This document shows, one piece after another, positions 1,565 to 57,635 of a stretch of 64,000 nt of DNA. The DNA comes from Patescibacteria group bacterium (lineage in GTDB: Bacteria > Patescibacteriota > Dojkabacteria > J137). Position 1 is the stretch's first letter, and each line of letters opens with the position of its first letter. Made by a program: the position numbers and the translations under genes. The DNA lies in the NCBI GenBank assembly GCA_963169855.1, contig CAUJCN010000002.1, positions 517,608 to 581,607 on the forward strand. Reading direction: 5' to 3'. A model generated the notes under the pieces. It saw only the letters and a program-made list of their open reading frames with translations. It was not told where the DNA came from and did not search any database.

Positions 1565-4402
1565 ATGCTTCCAGCAGGACCTTACGAACACAAACAATTT
1601 GAAAAAGAAATTTTAGACTTCTGGTTAGCAGGAGGTTACTACAGACCTGAATACTCACCAATTGCGGACTCGGTGATTTCTACAGAAGAAATGAAGAAAG
1701 ATTCAAGATTGCCTTGGTGTTTGATTTGTCCTCCACCAAACGCTTACGGAAGACCTCACATCGGAAACATTTCTGGTTACGCATACATGGATTCGATGGC
1801 TAGATACCAACGAATGAATGGAAAGAAAGTTTTAGTTCTCCCAGGAAAAGATCATGCTGGATTAGAAGGTGAGGGCGTTTTTGTTAGAGAAGTTTTGGAA
1901 AAACAAGGTCGAAATAAATTCGATATGAAGAGAGAAGAGTTCTATCAAGAAATGATGGAATTTAATTTCCAGAATATGGAGAAAGGACTTCAAGATGAGA
2001 AAAACATCGGCCTATCTGCGGATTTTTCGAGGAATACATTTACTCTTGATCCAGATATTGTAGATACAGTGTTGGAAACTTTTGTTCAGATGTACAAAAA
2101 GGACATGATTTATAAAGGCGTTAGAATTGTAAACTGGGATCCAAAAGCCAGAAGTGTTGTTGCCGATAATCAATGCGTTAGAGAAGAAAGGGACGGAAGT
2201 CTTTACTATATTAAGTACCCGATTGTTAGTTCTGACGAATCATTGACAGTAGCTACAACCAGACCAGAAACAATGTTTGGAGATACTGCTGTTGCTGTGA
2301 ATCCAAAAGATAAAAGATTTGCTAGTTTTATTGGAAAGACCGTACGAATTCCTCTTACAGACATAGAGATTCCAGTGATTTCTTCATTTAGGGTTTTAGA
2401 AGATTTTGGAACTGGAGCTTTAAAAATAACCCCAGCACATTCTCAAGATGACTATCAAATTATGATGGAGTGGAATAAAGAGAATACTGATAAAACAATT
2501 GGTTATCAAAATGTGATCGATAAAAGATTAACTCTAGTTGGCAAAACTCCAGAAAAATACAAAGGCAGAAAGTACAAAGAAGCAAAGGAAGAAATTTTGA
2601 AAGATCTTACAGAACAAGGATTCTTGGTAAAAGAAGAGAAGGTTAAGCAGAATGTGCTGATCGCTGAAAGAACAAAAGCATTGATTGAACCGTTAATGTC
2701 TTCTCAGTGGTATTTAAAATATGATTCAATCAAAGAAGAATCCAAGAAAATGGTAAACGATGGGAGAATCAATCTTTTCCCAGAAAGTATGGTAGATAAA
2801 TTCAATTTTTGGATGGATAACTTGAGAGATTGGGCTATTTCTAGAAGTTTATGGTGGGGCTACAGATTGCCAGTTTGGTATGCAGGAGAAGTTAAAGAGG
2901 AAATCGATGACAACGGAGAGGTTAGGGAATTGATTCGAACTTCTAATTTAACTCGAAAACTAAATTCTGAAGTAACAGTTGAACATGCAAGAGTTGAGGA
3001 TGCAGAAGCGATTCACCGAATCAATGTTGATGGGTGGCATGACAATTTTGTTGATGAAGCGGCTGGAGTGACATTAGAAAGAATTCAAAACGAATTTGGG
3101 AAAAGATACGATAACTCCGAAGCGATCGAGAAACATAAAGCTGATATTGTTAGCCCAAACTATAAATATCTTGTTGCAAAATCCAATGGGGAAGTAATCG
3201 GCTGGGCTATAACCGAAAATTTAAACATCGATGACACAAAATGGTTTGATGTTTACGTAGACCGAAATTGGAGAAGCAAAGGAATCGGATCAACACTTTT
3301 AGATGCGATGATTTCTGAACTTCCTGAGACAACTTTCCATTTGGCAGTTCCAGAGAAAAGCCCCGCTGTTAAATTTTACGAAAACTATGGTTTTGTCGAA
3401 TACGACAGGAATAGTGAAAATGAGTACGGACTTCCAATCATTCAGATGAAAAAGCTTCCCGAATGGGAAGAAGTTGAATACGGAAACGAAAATCACATTA
3501 AAGTTCAGCAAGATTCTCCAGGAGAAGGATGGATTCAAGACGAAGATGTTTTGGATACTTGGTTTAGTTCTGGACAGTGGGTTTATGCGACTTTAAAGAA
3601 ATACGATCTTATGGATACATTCTTCCCATCAGACGTAATGGTTTCTGGATTCGATATCCTTGAAAACTGGATTTCTAGAATGATTATGTTCACTTATTTC
3701 CACGAGGGAAAAGAACCATTCAAAAATGTTTACCTTACTGGATTAGTACAAGGTACTGATGGACAGAAAATGTCTAAGTCGAAAGGAAATATGATCGACA
3801 TGGATAAAATCGTTGCAGAATATGGAACAGATGCAGTTAGACTTGCTTATTTCTACCAAAATTCAGCTGGAGCTTCTTATTCAATCACTCCTGAAAAGTT
3901 GAAAAACTTTAGAGGATTCTTAAACAAAATCTGGAACGCATCTAAGTTTGTTCTAAACAACGAACAGTACATTGATCAAAGTGTCATATTGAGCCTGTCG
4001 AAATATGACATCGATAGCTTGAAATTAGATTTATCTAAAAAAGTTTTAACTCACATAAACGAAGTAAATATTCACATCACTGAAAATATTGAAAAGTATC
4101 AATTAGGATTAGCAACATTTAACTTGTACCAGGAATTCTGGCATACATATTGCGATATTTTGATCGAAGAATCAAAAGAATATTTGTGGGATAAAAAAGA
4201 TAAAGAAACTGGAGCGATTATTAGTTCTCCAAAGGCAGAAGACAGAGCAGAGGTTTCTACTGTGATGATATTCGCTTTGAAATCATATTTAAAATTGTTA
4301 CATCCATTCATTCCGTTCATTACTCAAACTATTTGGAACGAAGTTCCAAAGGACGAAACTGACCATAAAGTTTTGATGTATAGCCAGTGGAATGTAAAAT
4401 AA
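1565..4402 (+). CDS. valS: Valyl-tRNA synthetase carrying an inserted GNAT domain
   Basis: Class I aaRS motifs: PPPNAYGRPHIGN (HIGH-like), TTRPETMFGDTAVAVNPKD (ValRS editing-domain signature), DWAISRSLWWGYRLPVWY, QDEDVLDTWFSSGQW, GQKMSKSKGNMID (KMSKS). Confidence 0.85.
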   Translation: MLPAGPYEHKQFEKEILDFWLAGGYYRPEYSPIADSVISTEEMKKDSRLPWCLICPPPNAYGRPHIGNISGYAYMDSMARYQRMNGKKVLVLPGKDHAGLEGEGVFVREVLEKQGRNKFDMKREEFYQEMMEFNFQNMEKGLQDEKNIGLSADFSRNTFTLDPDIVDTVLETFVQMYKKDMIYKGVRIVNWDPKARSVVADNQCVREERDGSLYYIKYPIVSSDESLTVATTRPETMFGDTAVAVNPKDKRFASFIGKTVRIPLTDIEIPVISSFRVLEDFGTGALKITPAHSQDDYQIMMEWNKENTDKTIGYQNVIDKRLTLVGKTPEKYKGRKYKEAKEEILKDLTEQGFLVKEEKVKQNVLIAERTKALIEPLMSSQWYLKYDSIKEESKKMVNDGRINLFPESMVDKFNFWMDNLRDWAISRSLWWGYRLPVWYAGEVKEEIDDNGEVRELIRTSNLTRKLNSEVTVEHARVEDAEAIHRINVDGWHDNFVDEAAGVTLERIQNEFGKRYDNSEAIEKHKADIVSPNYKYLVAKSNGEVIGWAITENLNIDDTKWFDVYVDRNWRSKGIGSTLLDAMISELPETTFHLAVPEKSPAVKFYENYGFVEYDRNSENEYGLPIIQMKKLPEWEEVEYGNENHIKVQQDSPGEGWIQDEDVLDTWFSSGQWVYATLKKYDLMDTFFPSDVMVSGFDILENWISRMIMFTYFHEGKEPFKNVYLTGLVQGTDGQKMSKSKGNMIDMDKIVAEYGTDAVRLAYFYQNSAGASYSITPEKLKNFRGFLNKIWNASKFVLNNEQYIDQSVILSLSKYDIDSLKLDLSKKVLTHINEVNIHITENIEKYQLGLATFNLYQEFWHTYCDILIEESKEYLWDKKDKETGAIISSPKAEDRAEVSTVMIFALKSYLKLLHPFIPFITQTIWNEVPKDETDHKVLMYSQWNVK
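2985..3470 (+). other. GNAT N-acetyltransferase domain inserted in frame within valS (about 160-190 aa)
   Basis: GNAT motif A VYVDRNWRSKGIGSTLLDAMI (R-x-x-G-x-G) and motif B KFYENYGFVE, located between the ValRS motifs WWGYRLPVWY and QDEDVLDTWFSS. E. coli ValRS has only about 30 aa at this position. Confidence 0.7.
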
Positions 4403-55317: not shown

Positions 55318-55641
55318 ATGTACTTCTACATCTACATAATGACCAATAAAAGCAACTCCGTTCTTTATATCGGATACACGTCGGATATTCAAAAAAGAAC
55401 ATCTGAACATAAACAAAATACTTATCCTAATTCTTTCACAAAGAAATACAGAGCTAATAGGCTGGTGTACTTTGAGCTCCACCATTCTCATTCATCTGCC
55501 AAACACCGTGAATTTCTTTTGAAAAGATGGAGAAGAAAGTGGAAGGAAGAGTTAATTGAGAATCTGAACCCTAATTATGAGGATTTAGCTCCAAATGGAA
55601 TCATTCCTGACGAAATTTATTTAAGATATTTAAAACTATGA
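55318..55641 (+). CDS. GIY-YIG nuclease domain protein (107 aa)
   Basis: YIYIMTNKSNSVLYIGYTSDIQKRTSEHKQ is a canonical GIY-YIG N-terminal motif. Confidence 0.8.
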   Translation: MYFYIYIMTNKSNSVLYIGYTSDIQKRTSEHKQNTYPNSFTKKYRANRLVYFELHHSHSSAKHREFLLKRWRRKWKEELIENLNPNYEDLAPNGIIPDEIYLRYLKL

Positions 55642-55716: not shown

Positions 55717-56148
55717 CTAAAACCTCACCTCAAAAACCTCATCAGGATTCGCTTTCAGATTAGAATACTTAATGTAAGTTGGCTTAATGATGAAAAGATA
55801 ATCGTCTGGATTATCAATAAATTTCTTTGAAAAAGGAATTTTTTCTAAATGTCTCGCTACATATTTCTCGGATTCTTCTTTTGTAGCCATTCTCGCAATT
55901 CCTTGATACTGAACAGTAACAAAATCTTCGAAACTCCAACCAACAGTTACAGAAACTTTTTGATTAGTTTTTAGATTCTTGAACTTTCTTGTTTGATCCC
56001 AAGTTAAGAAAATGATTTCTAAATCATCACTTTCAGAAAAAGACATTGTTGCAGAATTTGGAAATCCTTCAGCATCAACAGTGGATAGTACACAAAGTTG
56101 ATTCTTTGCTAGAAATGTTTTGATAAGTTCTTTTTGTTCTGGTGTCAT
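55717..56148 (-). CDS. Pyridoxamine 5'-phosphate oxidase-like FMN-binding split-barrel protein
   Basis: LCVLSTVDAEGFPNSATMSF...KVSVTV is typical of the PNPOx-like family. Confidence 0.5.
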   Translation of the reverse strand: MTPEQKELIKTFLAKNQLCVLSTVDAEGFPNSATMSFSESDDLEIIFLTWDQTRKFKNLKTNQKVSVTVGWSFEDFVTVQYQGIARMATKEESEKYVARHLEKIPFSKKFIDNPDDYLFIIKPTYIKYSNLKANPDEVFEVRF

Positions 56149-57635
56149 ACTGTTTTTGGATAAGCTTTTTCAATTAAGTCTTTTTTATCTGCAATCTTTT
56201 CTCGCAGAGGAGATATTAAGGCAATTAATTCTTTCGCAACCGCCGGTTTTAAATCTGCTGAGACCAATCTTTGGTTTTTGAAATCATCCTCAACTTCTTC
56301 ATAATTTGAGTATTCAACATTTCCTCCCCATTTATCGGGTCTTTCTACTAAGAAATTTCTGTTATCTGCTCTGAATTTTCTGAAAAGTATGAATTTCAAA
56401 ATCGATAGCAATCCATTATTATTCACGTCTCCGTCCAACACAAATGCTTTATTAATTTTGTCATTGATGATTTCGTCTGTATCGTCTAAATCAATTTTTG
56501 AGTTTGGCTCAGAGGAACTCATTTTTCCTGACTTTCCTAATCCTGGAATTAAAGTATTCATTAAGTGAACTCGTTTTTTGTATCCGATCTTTGGAAGATA
56601 TTCTCTTGCAAACATAAAGATTTTTCTTTGATCTACGCCTCCAAATTGCGCGTCTACACCAAGATATTGCTCATCGAGTGCTTGTAGAATAGGGTAGAGC
56701 ATACTGCTCATTAATGGACTTTCTACTTGTTTTACAACTTCTGCTCCAGCTTTCTGAACATCTCTAAGTGAGGCCATCGCTGAAACTTTCAATAAATCTA
56801 GTTGATAGTCTTTGTCTAATTGATAAGTTGAACCCTTGATAAATTTAAGTTTTTCGATTGGAACTCCAACAACATTCAAAATCTCTTTGATTATGAATTC
56901 ATAATACTGAACTCGGTATTCAAGCAGTTCCCAGTTTGATTTCATGTTATCTAAATATGCATGAATGTCTGCCAACAAAACTGTAACTTCACAACCAGCT
57001 TCAAGGAAGTCTGCAATTTTCATTAGTGGAACAAAGTATCCAAGATGTGGCTTTCCTGTAGGAGCTGTTCCCCAGTAAATTTTCACACTTCTTTCCGAAA
57101 GAATTGGTGCTAAATCTTCAATTCCAATTGTTTCTGCCAAATCGTTAGTAATTAAATCCATTTTTGCTTGAACCTCAGGCGTCATTTCCACATAACCAGC
57201 TTTCTTGAAAATAATATTCAACTGATCTTCGGTCAAAATATCCAAAATTGATTTTCCAATCATATCTGATTCTGTCAGACCGAGCTTGTCGAGGTCGAGG
57301 ATCATCAATCCTACATGACCTTCACCTAGTCCTATTTCATCTTCTGCTAACAACATTCCTTCAGAATCGTATCCTCTCAGTTTTTTCTTAACCAGAACAA
57401 TGTTTTCGTTATTTGTGAATAAGAAGCCAGGAACTGTAAATCCTGGTGCTAGATAAGGAACAATATCTCCCTGTTTAAAGTTCTGAGCTCCAGTAACAAC
57501 TTGAGCTGTTCCTTCACCAGTATTGATTTGAGTCACATGTAGATGATCAGAATTTTCATTCTTTTTTGATTCAGTAATTTTTACAATTTTGATAGGTCTA
57601 AGAAGATCTAAAATTTCTTGTTTTGATAATGACAT
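56145..57635 (-). CDS. tyrS: Tyrosyl-tRNA synthetase, archaeal/eukaryotic type, with N-terminal EMAPII/Trbp111-like tRNA-binding domain
   Basis: Catalytic core GKPHLGYFVPLMKIADFLEAGCEVTVLLADIHAYLD and KMSSS (as in M. jannaschii TyrRS). N-terminal about 170 aa with OB-fold signature KKKLRGYDSEGMLLAEDE (the K-L-R-G-x-x-S-x-G-M-L motif). Confidence 0.7.
   Translation of the reverse strand: MSLSKQEILDLLRPIKIVKITESKKNENSDHLHVTQINTGEGTAQVVTGAQNFKQGDIVPYLAPGFTVPGFLFTNNENIVLVKKKLRGYDSEGMLLAEDEIGLGEGHVGLMILDLDKLGLTESDMIGKSILDILTEDQLNIIFKKAGYVEMTPEVQAKMDLITNDLAETIGIEDLAPILSERSVKIYWGTAPTGKPHLGYFVPLMKIADFLEAGCEVTVLLADIHAYLDNMKSNWELLEYRVQYYEFIIKEILNVVGVPIEKLKFIKGSTYQLDKDYQLDLLKVSAMASLRDVQKAGAEVVKQVESPLMSSMLYPILQALDEQYLGVDAQFGGVDQRKIFMFAREYLPKIGYKKRVHLMNTLIPGLGKSGKMSSSEPNSKIDLDDTDEIINDKINKAFVLDGDVNNNGLLSILKFILFRKFRADNRNFLVERPDKWGGNVEYSNYEEVEDDFKNQRLVSADLKPAVAKELIALISPLREKIADKKDLIEKAYPKTV

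What the first reader, a model, noticed from the sequence alone, without database searches (positions are those of the whole stretch)
57126..57635. Archaeal-type TyrRS fused to an N-terminal EMAPII/Trbp111-like tRNA-binding domain
The catalytic core has archaeal/eukaryotic TyrRS hallmarks (HLGY for HIGH, LLADIHAYL, KMSSS). The first about 170 residues are an OB-fold tRNA-binding domain with the diagnostic KLRGYDSEGMLLA motif, the Myf/EMAPII family found at the C-terminus of human TyrRS and bacterial MetRS and as the free-standing Trbp111. Here it is at the N-terminus of a bacterial enzyme, an uncommon domain order that would boost tRNA affinity for a minimal catalytic core.
Basis: partly seen in the sequence, partly recalled or inferred. 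Interest (0 to 1): 0.6.

Follow-up and report, generated by a model that had tools for sequence, protein, structure and literature searches.

The report
TyrRS with N-terminal PheRS-B2 domain
A candidate-phyla-radiation bacterium encodes a eukaryote/archaeon-type tyrosyl-tRNA synthetase carrying an extra N-terminal tRNA-binding domain; the fusion is real, but this "B2-TyrRS" was already described in 2017.

Summary
Window 56145-57635 (- strand) is one 496-aa ORF. It has a Pfam tRNA_bind OB-fold at residues 15-114, a short helical linker to about residue 152, and a complete class Ic TyrRS core at residues 153-496. All four quoted motifs are present.

Two points of the interpretation need correcting. 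The N-domain is the PheRS beta-subunit B2/YtpR subtype, not the EMAPII/Trbp111 subtype. The core is closest to opisthokont and DPANN TyrRS (about 55% identical to human), not to classical archaeal enzymes (34-38%).

The architecture is already published. Mukai, Reynolds, Crnkovic and Söll (Life 2017, PMC5370408) described "B2-TyrRS" in WS6/Dojkabacteria. They also reported archaeal-type tRNATyr identity (C1-G72) in these bacteria.

What I add:
- At least 31 fused sequence clusters exist.
- Unfused bacterial TyrRSs nest inside the fused clades, so B2 was lost or gained repeatedly.
- The same B2 module sits on three unrelated TyrRS core types, and also on MetRS, LysRS and a NUDIX protein.

B2 most likely acts as a cis tRNA-affinity module. 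That is inference; no biochemistry exists, and I could not retrieve this lineage's tRNATyr.

Verdict: real, functional, already known; moderate-low interest.

The parts
56145..57635 (-). Complete B2-TyrRS gene (496 aa plus stop codon)
   Evidence: ORF listing. Pfam tRNA_bind plus tRNA-synt_1b. NCBIfam TyrRS equivalogs above their cut-offs. The identical product occurs on 8 contigs.
57294..57593 (-). OB-fold tRNA_bind domain (residues 15-114) of the PheRS-beta B2 subtype. It includes the RG.xSxGM hallmark inside KLRGYDSEGMLLA (57345-57383).
   Evidence: PF01588, E 7e-12. pheT_bact 84.5 bits, versus YtpR 59.7 and Trbp/metG_C about 27-28. Foldseek top hits are PheRS beta and YtpR. G88, S91, M94 and E100 are invariant across fused and stand-alone homologues.
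57180..57293 (-). Helical extension and linker (residues 115-152) joining B2 to the synthetase
   Evidence: AlphaFold model: helices at 115-118, 122-125 and 136-145, pLDDT 85-93. The PheT model alignment runs to residue 137. Mukai et al. describe a helix joining B2 to TyrRS.
56148..57179 (-). Archaeal/eukaryal-type TyrRS core (residues 153-496): Rossmann fold, CP1 and C-terminal anticodon-binding domain. There is no bacterial S4-like domain.
   Evidence: Aligns end to end with human TyrRS residues 2-339, E 1e-120. Foldseek TM 0.94, 55% identity.
57036..57047 (-). HIGH-type signature, HLGY (residues 197-200)
   Evidence: Motif position. G199 is nearly invariant and Y200 invariant in alignment A1.
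56511..56525 (-). KMSKS-type signature, KMSSS (residues 371-375)
   Evidence: Motif position. K371, M372, S373 and S375 are invariant.
56622..56627 (-). R337-K338, equivalent to M. jannaschii R174/K175 and yeast R193, the residues that read C1-G72/A73
   Evidence: Invariant in all 122 aligned cores. Residue roles are taken from PMC1934993.
56253..56255 (-). D461, equivalent to M. jannaschii D286 and yeast D321, the residue that reads anticodon base G34
   Evidence: Conserved in all fused and unfused relatives. Role taken from PMC1934993.
55717..56148 (-). Downstream PNPOx-like gene whose ATG overlaps the tyrS stop codon by 4 bp (ATGA). It is probably co-transcribed and is context, not part of the enzyme.
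   Evidence: Sequence GTATGACA at the junction. Pfam PNPOx_N, E 3e-21.

Best explanation
This is the housekeeping tyrosyl-tRNA synthetase of a CPR (Patescibacteria) bacterium, most likely a Dojkabacterium (WS6).

Its catalytic and anticodon-binding core belongs to the archaeal/eukaryal lineage. It was probably acquired by lateral transfer within the DPANN, eukaryote and CPR gene pool. It keeps the residues that read C1-G72/A73 and G34, so it should charge a tRNATyr with archaeal-type identity.

Fused to its N-terminus through a short helical linker is an OB-fold homologous to the B2 domain of bacterial PheRS beta. I infer that this domain acts in cis as a general tRNA-binding module. Such a module would raise affinity for tRNATyr (lower Km), as appended tRNA_bind domains do in MetRS, Arc1p and human TyrRS.

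Shown here: gene integrity, domain identities, conservation and phylogenetic distribution. Inferred: tRNA binding by B2 and its kinetic effect. My confidence in the identity and architecture is about 0.95. My confidence in the cis affinity-module mechanism is about 0.5. The overall figure given is a compromise between the two.
For: Identity of the two domains. AlphaFold models are confident for the whole protein (pLDDT 91.6) and for the N-domain alone (91.8).

The genome context is bacterial: S20, S13, S11, S4, RpoA, L17, DnaN and a sigma-70 factor. The gene overlaps the next gene by 4 bp, and GC content is uniform at about 34%. Homologues are named Candidatus Dojkabacteria.

The readers of C1-G72 (R337/K338) and of G34 (D461) are invariant. 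The literature reports C1-G72 tRNATyr plus archaea/eukarya-type TyrRS in Dojkabacteria, and B2-TyrRS in a WS6 genome.

B2 appears to be under constraint. The hallmark residues G88, S91, M94 and E100 are invariant. dN/dS is roughly 0.04-0.25, although dS is saturated.

B2 is retained while the TyrRS core is swapped. N-domains 45-54% identical to this one sit on a protist-like core (P0129) and on a P. horikoshii-like core (P0132). P0129 lies in a locus syntenic with the window.

The same module is appended to MetRS, LysRS and a PheRS-alpha-like protein. That pattern fits a generic tRNA-handling cassette.
Against: No biochemical data exist for any B2-TyrRS; no paper later than 2017 was found.

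Unfused 346-aa TyrRSs from bacterial loci nest inside the fused clades, with bootstrap support of 82-93% and 75%. Monophyly of the fused sequences alone was recovered in 0 of 200 replicates. Those loci have no neighbouring tRNA_bind gene. B2 is therefore dispensable in at least some close relatives.

From my own recollection, not checked here: in T. thermophilus PheRS-tRNA crystal structures the B2 domain does not contact tRNA, so tRNA binding by this subtype is less well established than for Trbp111/EMAPII.

The tRNATyr of this lineage was not recovered.
Confidence: 0.6

Rival explanations
1. B2 is a specific surrogate for the missing bacterial S4-like domain. It would contact the long variable arm or elbow of a bacterial-derived class II tRNATyr that has switched to C1-G72. 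This would let an archaeal/eukaryal core, which evolved on class I tRNATyr, work in a bacterium.
For: Mukai et al. report that CPR tRNATyr with C1-G72 often keeps the variable arm. My metagenome pattern scan returned about 80 tRNATyr genes with C1, G72-A73 and a variable arm. B2 stays attached while three different TyrRS cores are exchanged. NCBIfam lists a separate family, TapR, described as a 'TyrS-associated PheT N-terminal domain-related protein'. That points to an independent B2-like/TyrS partnership.
Against: Many CPR lineages with a variable-arm C1-G72 tRNATyr use unfused archaeal-type TyrRS. One example is L130, where the tRNATyr lies directly upstream of an unfused tyrS. Unfused enzymes also nest inside the fused clade. 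No tRNATyr could be linked to a B2-TyrRS genome, so the predicted correlation is untested.
Confidence: 0.2
2. B2 is a nearly neutral or dispensable appendage, or it serves another role. It could be a protein-protein docking module like YtpR with GatB, or bind RNA other than tRNATyr. It would not be a tRNATyr affinity module.
For: Repeated absence of B2 in nested lineages. The N-domain evolves faster than the core, with mean pairwise identity of 47% versus 66%. The B2 relative YtpR cross-links to GatB in B. subtilis. The module also occurs on a NUDIX hydrolase.
Against: Hallmark residues are conserved and dN/dS is well below 1. The fusion persists across at least 31 clusters and three core types. 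Most partners of the module are aminoacyl-tRNA synthetases.
Confidence: 0.15
3. The finding is an artefact: a chimeric assembly, a read-through of two genes, or a DPANN or eukaryotic contaminant gene binned with a bacterium.
For: None beyond the unusual phylogenetic affinity of the core.
Against: The identical ORF occurs on 8 independently assembled contigs of up to 818 kb. The same architecture is found in 9 GTDB species representatives, including a complete 1.19-Mb chromosome. The gene is flanked on both sides by bacterial genes, overlaps the next gene by 4 bp and has uniform GC content.
Confidence: 0.01

Closest known systems
B2-TyrRS of WS6 bacterium GW2011_GWA2_37_6 and two activated-sludge contigs (Mukai, Reynolds, Crnkovic, Söll, Life 2017;7:8, PMC5370408)
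   Same: A PheRS-beta B2 domain joined by a helix to the N-terminus of an archaea/eukarya-type TyrRS in a CPR bacterium (WS6 = Dojkabacteria). The authors report evidence that the TyrRS part can be swapped beneath a constant B2.
   Different: Nothing architectural; the window protein is another member. I could not align it directly to their three accessions. Here the family is seen to be much larger (at least 31 clusters). It also has a third core type (P. horikoshii-like, P0132) and nested unfused members.
Human cytoplasmic TyrRS (mini-TyrRS plus C-terminal EMAPII-like domain)
   Same: The core is about 55% identical, with TM 0.94. It also carries an appended tRNA_bind-superfamily OB-fold.
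   Different: The human appendage is C-terminal and of the EMAPII subtype. Here it is N-terminal and of the PheT-B2 subtype. EMAPII (1euj) matches only at E 1e-3, against 4e-8 for PheRS beta.
B2 domain of bacterial PheRS beta subunit (PheT; e.g. 1pys, 3pco, 7ka0)
   Same: This is the best sequence and structure match for residues 12-137: TIGR00472 positions 43-157 and the top Foldseek hits.
   Different: Only this one domain is present. The protein scores 80.7 bits against the PheT cut-off of 402.65, with no B1 or B3-B8 domains. It is not a PheT.
Stand-alone B2-like proteins YtpR (NF045760) and TapR (NF045867, 'TyrS-associated PheT N-terminal domain-related protein')
   Same: They have the same OB-fold subtype. 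TapR is, by its NCBIfam name, genomically associated with TyrS, which would be a trans version of the same partnership. YtpR is implicated in tRNA-dependent GatCAB chemistry.
   Different: The window domain scores below both cut-offs: 59.7 against 100 for YtpR and 31.6 against 120 for TapR. It also lacks the roughly 80-residue N-terminal extension of those proteins.
C-terminal S4-like domain of bacterial TyrRS
   Same: It is a possible functional analogue: an appended RNA-binding domain on a TyrRS dimer that grips tRNATyr outside the acceptor and anticodon regions (role as described in PMC5370408).
   Different: The fold and the terminus are unrelated. The window protein has no S4-like domain; it ends at the archaeal/eukaryal anticodon-binding domain.

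Membership tests
Tyrosyl-tRNA synthetase, archaeal/eukaryal type (class Ic) | Scores above the curated cut-off of TyrRS equivalog models and below that of the TrpRS models | tested here: met
   NF006330 scores 303.2 bits (cut-off 220) and TIGR00234 scores 196.2 (cut-off 113.8). TrpRS TIGR00233 scores 77.1 (cut-off 176.75).
Tyrosyl-tRNA synthetase, archaeal/eukaryal type (class Ic) | HIGH and KMSKS class I signature motifs | tested here: met
   HLGY at residues 197-200 and KMSSS at 371-375. The key positions are invariant in 52 homologues.
Tyrosyl-tRNA synthetase, archaeal/eukaryal type (class Ic) | Archaeal/eukaryal C-terminal anticodon-binding domain, with no bacterial S4-like C-terminal domain | tested here: met
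   Residues 153-493 align with human mini-TyrRS residues 2-339, and the protein ends at residue 496. T. thermophilus TyrRS matches only at E 1e-7 over the catalytic part.
Tyrosyl-tRNA synthetase, archaeal/eukaryal type (class Ic) | Residues that read C1-G72/A73 (Mj R174/K175; yeast R193) and G34 (Mj D286; yeast D321) | tested here: met
   R337, K338 and D461 are invariant. Mj R132 is K295 in the window, and K or G in other fused members.
Tyrosyl-tRNA synthetase, archaeal/eukaryal type (class Ic) | Cognate tRNATyr with C1-G72 in the same genome, and no second bacterial-type tyrS | not testable with these tools
   No tRNA gene was found in the window or in any related locus scanned around fused, unfused or B2-bearing genes. 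No second class Ic enzyme lies in the 64-kb window. Mukai et al. report C1-G72 tRNATyr in Dojkabacteria.
Pfam tRNA_bind (PF01588) superfamily | Score above the Pfam gathering threshold | tested here: met
   45.7 bits against 27, residues 15-114.
PheRS beta B2-domain subtype (domain-level homology, not PheT membership) | Best sequence and structure match among tRNA_bind subtypes | tested here: met
   pheT_bact scores 84.5 bits, above YtpR at 59.7, TapR at 31.6, metG_C at 28.2 and Trbp at 27.4. The Foldseek top 19 hits are PheRS beta or YtpR-like chains. In an exhaustive phmmer search, non-fused hits are PheT proteins matched at positions of about 43-150.
PheT (phenylalanine--tRNA ligase beta subunit) | Full-length equivalog score and the B1, B3-B8 domains | tested here: not met
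   80.7 bits against a cut-off of 402.65. Only model positions 43-157 are matched.
   metG_C_term scores 24-28 bits (cut-off 116.65) and PRK10089 tRNA-binding protein 23.5-27.4 (cut-off 150). Trbp111 and MetRS-C structures match at E about 2e-4, and EMAPII and Arc1p-C at about 1e-3. All rank behind PheRS beta.
YtpR and TapR stand-alone families | Score above the curated cut-off, with the roughly 80-aa N-terminal extension | tested here: not met
   YtpR scores 59.7 against 100 and TapR 31.6 against 120. The match starts at residue 13, with no extension.
B2-TyrRS (Mukai et al. 2017) | N-terminal PheRS-beta B2 domain plus helix plus archaea/eukarya-type TyrRS, in a CPR (WS6) bacterium | tested here: met
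   Domain calls (3, 41, 48), helical linker, Dojkabacteria-named homologues and the description in the paper. A direct alignment to the paper's three accessions was not possible.

The most novel reading that the evidence does not exclude
The B2 cassette may be the adaptor that makes an archaeal/eukaryal TyrRS compatible with a bacterial-descended class II tRNATyr (C1-G72 plus a long variable arm). It would functionally replace the bacterial S4-like domain. Its repeated loss would then track loss of the variable arm, and its retention through three independent core replacements would show that the adaptor, not the catalytic core, is the lineage-specific element. More broadly, the same cassette on MetRS, LysRS, a PheRS-alpha-like protein and a NUDIX protein would make it a mobile tRNA-handling module of CPR bacteria.
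Probability: 0.15. Interest if true: 0.55.

Novelty: already known. Interest (0 to 1): 0.3.

Why it matters
TyrRS and tRNATyr identity (G1-C72 plus a variable arm in bacteria; C1-G72 without one in archaea and eukaryotes) was long considered a hard barrier to inter-domain transfer of this synthetase. CPR bacteria break that rule, and the B2 fusion may be part of how they accommodate a foreign enzyme.

That story was opened in 2017, so this window adds another member rather than a discovery. The useful residue is a concrete, testable question. Is B2 a generic affinity booster or a variable-arm adaptor? Why is it kept through core replacements yet lost in some sister lineages?

These compact, eukaryote-like enzymes with a detachable tRNA-binding module could also interest genetic-code-expansion work that relies on orthogonal TyrRS/tRNA pairs.

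Tried and rejected
**Searching for this lineage's tRNATyr**
- ARAGORN found no tRNA in the window, in the flanks reached by look-ups from the window ends, or in any of the related loci scanned around fused, unfused or B2-bearing genes.
It returned many C1-G72 tRNATyr genes, about 80 of them with a variable arm.
- None of those loci could be tied to a B2-TyrRS genome by tblastn against the Dojkabacteria loci.
- An apparent synteny lead (an ORF in L010 against L190 and L209) did not hold once orientation was checked.

**Other searches that led nowhere**
- T-box or other RNA leader upstream of tyrS: Rfam found nothing in the window. The simple promoter scan found no more sites than in shuffled sequence.
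- Split-gene hypothesis for the unfused relatives: no tRNA_bind gene lies next to the unfused tyrS in L004-L008.
- One stand-alone B2 ORF (P0121) sits in the same S20/membrane-protein synteny as the window. Its 1.9-kb contig ends 50 bp after the stop codon, so its status is undecided.
- Rooting the core tree with M. jannaschii TyrRS gave an unresolved backbone. Monophyly of the Dojkabacteria sequences relative to DPANN and eukaryotes got under 5% bootstrap. I make no claim about the donor lineage.

**Rejected outright**
- TrpRS identity.
- EMAPII/Trbp111 subtype.
- Assembly artefact or contamination.
Full report
**1. What is in the sequence**

Window 56145-57635 on the - strand is one uninterrupted ATG-initiated ORF of 496 codons.
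- KLRGYDSEGMLLA at residues 85-97
- HLGY at 197-200
- LLADIHAYL at 220-228
- KMSSS at 371-375

Pfam finds tRNA_bind (PF01588) at residues 15-114 (E 7.3e-12) and tRNA-synt_1b at residues 181-473 (E 1.4e-63). The flagged interval 57126-57635 is residues 1-170. The true boundary is near residue 152, because residues 153-493 align with residues 2-339 of human cytoplasmic TyrRS.

An AlphaFold2 model built on 52 homologues is confident (mean pLDDT 91.6). It shows an OB-fold at residues 16-91, short helices up to residue 145, and then the Rossmann fold.

The tyrS stop codon overlaps the ATG of a downstream PNPOx-like gene by 4 bp. The window has no tRNA gene and no Rfam match, so there is no T-box leader.

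**2. The fusion is real and bacterial**

The identical protein is encoded on 8 independently assembled contigs, the longest 817,811 bp. The surrounding 64 kb encodes bacterial S20, S13, S11, S4, RpoA, L17, RecA, RecF, trigger factor, a sigma-70 factor and, just beyond the window, DnaN. GC content is uniform at about 34%.

Among the best 120 homologue clusters, 31 carry the same N-domain and are 482-514 aa long. Several are named Candidatus Dojkabacteria. Nine GTDB species representatives, including a complete 1.19-Mb chromosome, encode full-length relatives. No second class Ic synthetase or tRNA_bind protein lies in the window.

**3. The catalytic core**

NCBIfam places the protein above the cut-off of the TyrRS equivalogs: NF006330 scores 303 bits against 220. 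It falls far below the TrpRS models, at 77 bits against 176.75.

Against solved structures, the core compares as follows:

| Structure | Bits | Identity |
|---|---|---|
| Human TyrRS | 407 | about 55% (TM 0.94) |
| Yeast TyrRS | 388 | 48% |
| A. fulgidus TyrRS | 221 | 38% |
| M. jannaschii TyrRS | 197 | 34% |
| T. thermophilus TyrRS (bacterial type) | 35 | not reported |

The closest unfused relatives outside this clade are 343-aa enzymes of DPANN archaea (61-67% identity), followed by eukaryotes. [quoted passage not shown] is therefore more accurate than "archaeal-type".

The residues that read the C1-G72/A73 end of tRNATyr are known from the M. jannaschii and yeast co-crystal structures: Mj R174/K175 and yeast R193 (PMC1934993). 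Here they are R337/K338, invariant in all 122 aligned cores. The residue that reads G34 (Mj D286) is D461.

**4. The N-terminal domain**

Scanned alone, residues 1-152 score as follows:

| NCBIfam model | Bits |
|---|---|
| pheT_bact (model positions 43-157, the B2 domain of PheRS beta) | 84.5 |
| YtpR | 59.7 |
| TapR | 31.6 |
| metG_C_term | 28.2 |
| Trbp111/CsaA-type model | 27.4 |

A separate AlphaFold model of the domain (pLDDT 91.8) was compared with the PDB by Foldseek. It returns PheRS beta chains from E. coli, P. aeruginosa, M. tuberculosis and T. thermophilus, plus YtpR-like proteins, at E 4e-8 to 7e-5. Trbp111 and MetRS-C follow at about 2e-4, and EMAPII and Arc1p-C at about 1e-3.

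An exhaustive phmmer search of 1.84 billion representatives found 3,526 relatives. Apart from the fusions, the top of the list is dominated by roughly 800-aa PheT proteins matched at positions of about 43-150.

**5. This is already published**

Mukai, Reynolds, Crnkovic and Söll (Life 2017;7:8, PMC5370408) searched for archaeal tRNA identities in bacteria. Their relevant findings are:
- Archaea/eukarya-type TyrRS genes and tRNATyr with C1-G72, often still carrying the bacterial variable arm, occur in Parcubacteria, Microgenomates, Dojkabacteria (WS6) and Katanobacteria.
- The TyrRS part had been swapped beneath a constant B2 in one lineage.
- Some Microgenomates LysRSs carry the same module at the C-terminus.

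I found no later paper on B2-TyrRS and no biochemistry. The window protein is another member of this described family.

**6. What the present analysis adds**

(a) The family is larger than the three sequences of 2017: at least 31 clusters at 90% identity and 9 species-level genomes.

(b) Unfused 346-aa TyrRSs nest inside fused clades.
- P0016, P0026, P0032 and P0042 are 66-81% identical to the window core.
- They lie in clearly bacterial loci, next to infA, rpmJ, rpsM, rpsK and a tyrA-like gene.
- NJ bootstrap support for their nested positions is 82.5%, 93% and 74.5%. "Fused only" monophyly was recovered in 0 of 200 replicates.
- B2 has therefore been lost, or less likely gained, several times.

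(c) B2 modules 45-54% identical to the window's sit on two other, very different TyrRS cores.
- P0129 has a protist/apicomplexan-like core with a large insertion (best PDB hit Plasmodium TyrRS, 332 bits). Its locus is syntenic with the window's neighbourhood (TatD, S20, a membrane protein, and tyrA nearby).
- P0132 has a Pyrococcus horikoshii-like core (367 bits).
- These two cores are only 29-39% identical to the window core.

(d) The same module is also fused to other proteins:
- the C-terminus of a MetRS (P0131, about 46-50% identical)
- the C-terminus of a LysRS (P0165)
- the N-terminus of a NUDIX hydrolase (P0130)
- a PheRS-alpha-like protein (P0239)
- it also occurs free-standing, at 140-260 aa

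(e) The N-domain evolves faster than the core. Mean pairwise identity is 47% against 66%, and the two sets of distances correlate with r = 0.58. It nevertheless keeps the invariant G88, S91, M94 and E100 of the RG.xSxGM motif. dN/dS is well below 1, with the caveat that dS is saturated.

**7. How it most likely works**

Shown: an intact, conserved class Ic TyrRS with archaeal/eukaryal acceptor-stem and anticodon readers, and a conserved B2-type OB-fold tethered to its N-terminus.

Inferred from established knowledge (my own recollection, not checked here): appended tRNA_bind domains act as cis-acting tRNA-affinity modules in the MetRS C-terminal domain, Trbp111, Arc1p and the EMAPII domain of human TyrRS. 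By analogy, B2 probably increases tRNATyr binding.

A more specific reading is that B2 replaces the bacterial S4-like domain in gripping the variable arm kept by CPR tRNATyr. This is attractive because B2 is retained through core replacements, and because NCBIfam recognises a "TyrS-associated" B2-like family, TapR. It is weakened by the many CPR lineages that pair a variable-arm C1-G72 tRNATyr with an unfused archaeal-type TyrRS. One example is locus L130, where the tRNA lies directly upstream of tyrS. It is also weakened by the nested unfused enzymes.

I could not obtain the tRNATyr of any B2-TyrRS genome, so the deciding correlation remains untested.

**8. Verdict**

The domain subtype and the core affinity are corrected, and the mechanism remains untested. 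The feature is already known from the 2017 literature. Interest is moderate-low. The open and tractable question is the function of B2.

Noticed in passing
window 1565-4402 (+); GNAT insert at about 3092-3454 (residues ~510-630): The 945-aa ValRS scores 657 bits on TIGR00422 (above its 612 cut-off) and 700 bits on NF004349 (just under 704). A GNAT acetyltransferase domain (Acetyltransf_1/7/10, E 1e-12 to 7e-14) is inserted between the two halves of the synthetase body. NCBIfam has an 'ileS_w_GNAT' exception model for IleRS; a ValRS counterpart may be less documented.
   Followed up: partly
L217 10001-11836 (P0129); L216 1819-3384 (P0132): The B2 module (45-54% identical to the window's) is fused to two other TyrRS core types. 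P0129 has a Plasmodium/protist-like core with an insertion of about 100 aa, in a locus syntenic with the window. P0132 has a Pyrococcus horikoshii-like core. The second may go beyond the two core types reported in 2017.
   Followed up: partly
P0131 (L215 5001-7178), P0165, P0130, P0239: The same B2-plus-helix cassette is fused to the C-terminus of MetRS (in place of the usual Trbp111-type domain) and to the C-terminus of LysRS. It is also fused to the N-terminus of a NUDIX hydrolase and occurs inside a PheRS-alpha-like protein.
   Followed up: partly
L004 6001-7041, L005 4089-5129, L008 386-1426: Unfused 346-aa TyrRSs, 66-81% identical to the window core, lie in bacterial ribosomal-protein neighbourhoods (infA, rpmJ, rpsM, rpsK). 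They nest inside the fused clades, which implies repeated loss of B2.
   Followed up: yes
L093 9256-9993, L004 7051-7752, L008 1433-2137, L217 6575-7318: A prephenate/arogenate dehydrogenase gene (tyrA; PDH_N) lies directly beside or near tyrS in several relatives. This is a tyrosine-biosynthesis/tyrosine-charging gene pair. In the window a PNPOx-like gene occupies the adjacent position instead.
   Followed up: no
L089 1365-1805 (P0121): A free-standing 146-aa B2-plus-helix ORF, 43% identical to the window N-domain, lies in the same S20/membrane-protein synteny as the window. The contig ends 50 bp after its stop codon. Whether a separate TyrRS gene follows (a split version) is unknown.
   Followed up: partly
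L130 2276-3806: A CPR-like contig has a tRNATyr (C1, G72-A73, long variable arm) directly upstream of an unfused archaeal-type tyrS, followed by tRNA-Thr. In this assembly the tyrS is split by a frameshift into 149-aa and 239-aa ORFs. It is an example of an archaeal-identity tRNATyr/tyrS operon.
   Followed up: partly
window 1-64000 and loci L001, L009-L016, L056, L091, L093, L217: Not a single tRNA gene was found in the window or in any related locus scanned. By contrast, some metagenome contigs from the tRNATyr scan carry arrays of 10-26 tRNAs, for example L190, L141 and L174. tRNA genes may be strongly clustered in these genomes.
   Followed up: no
window 55318-55641 (+): A small (107-aa) GIY-YIG domain protein lies just downstream of the tyrS/PNPOx pair. 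It may be a mobile or nuclease element next to a laterally acquired gene.
   Followed up: no
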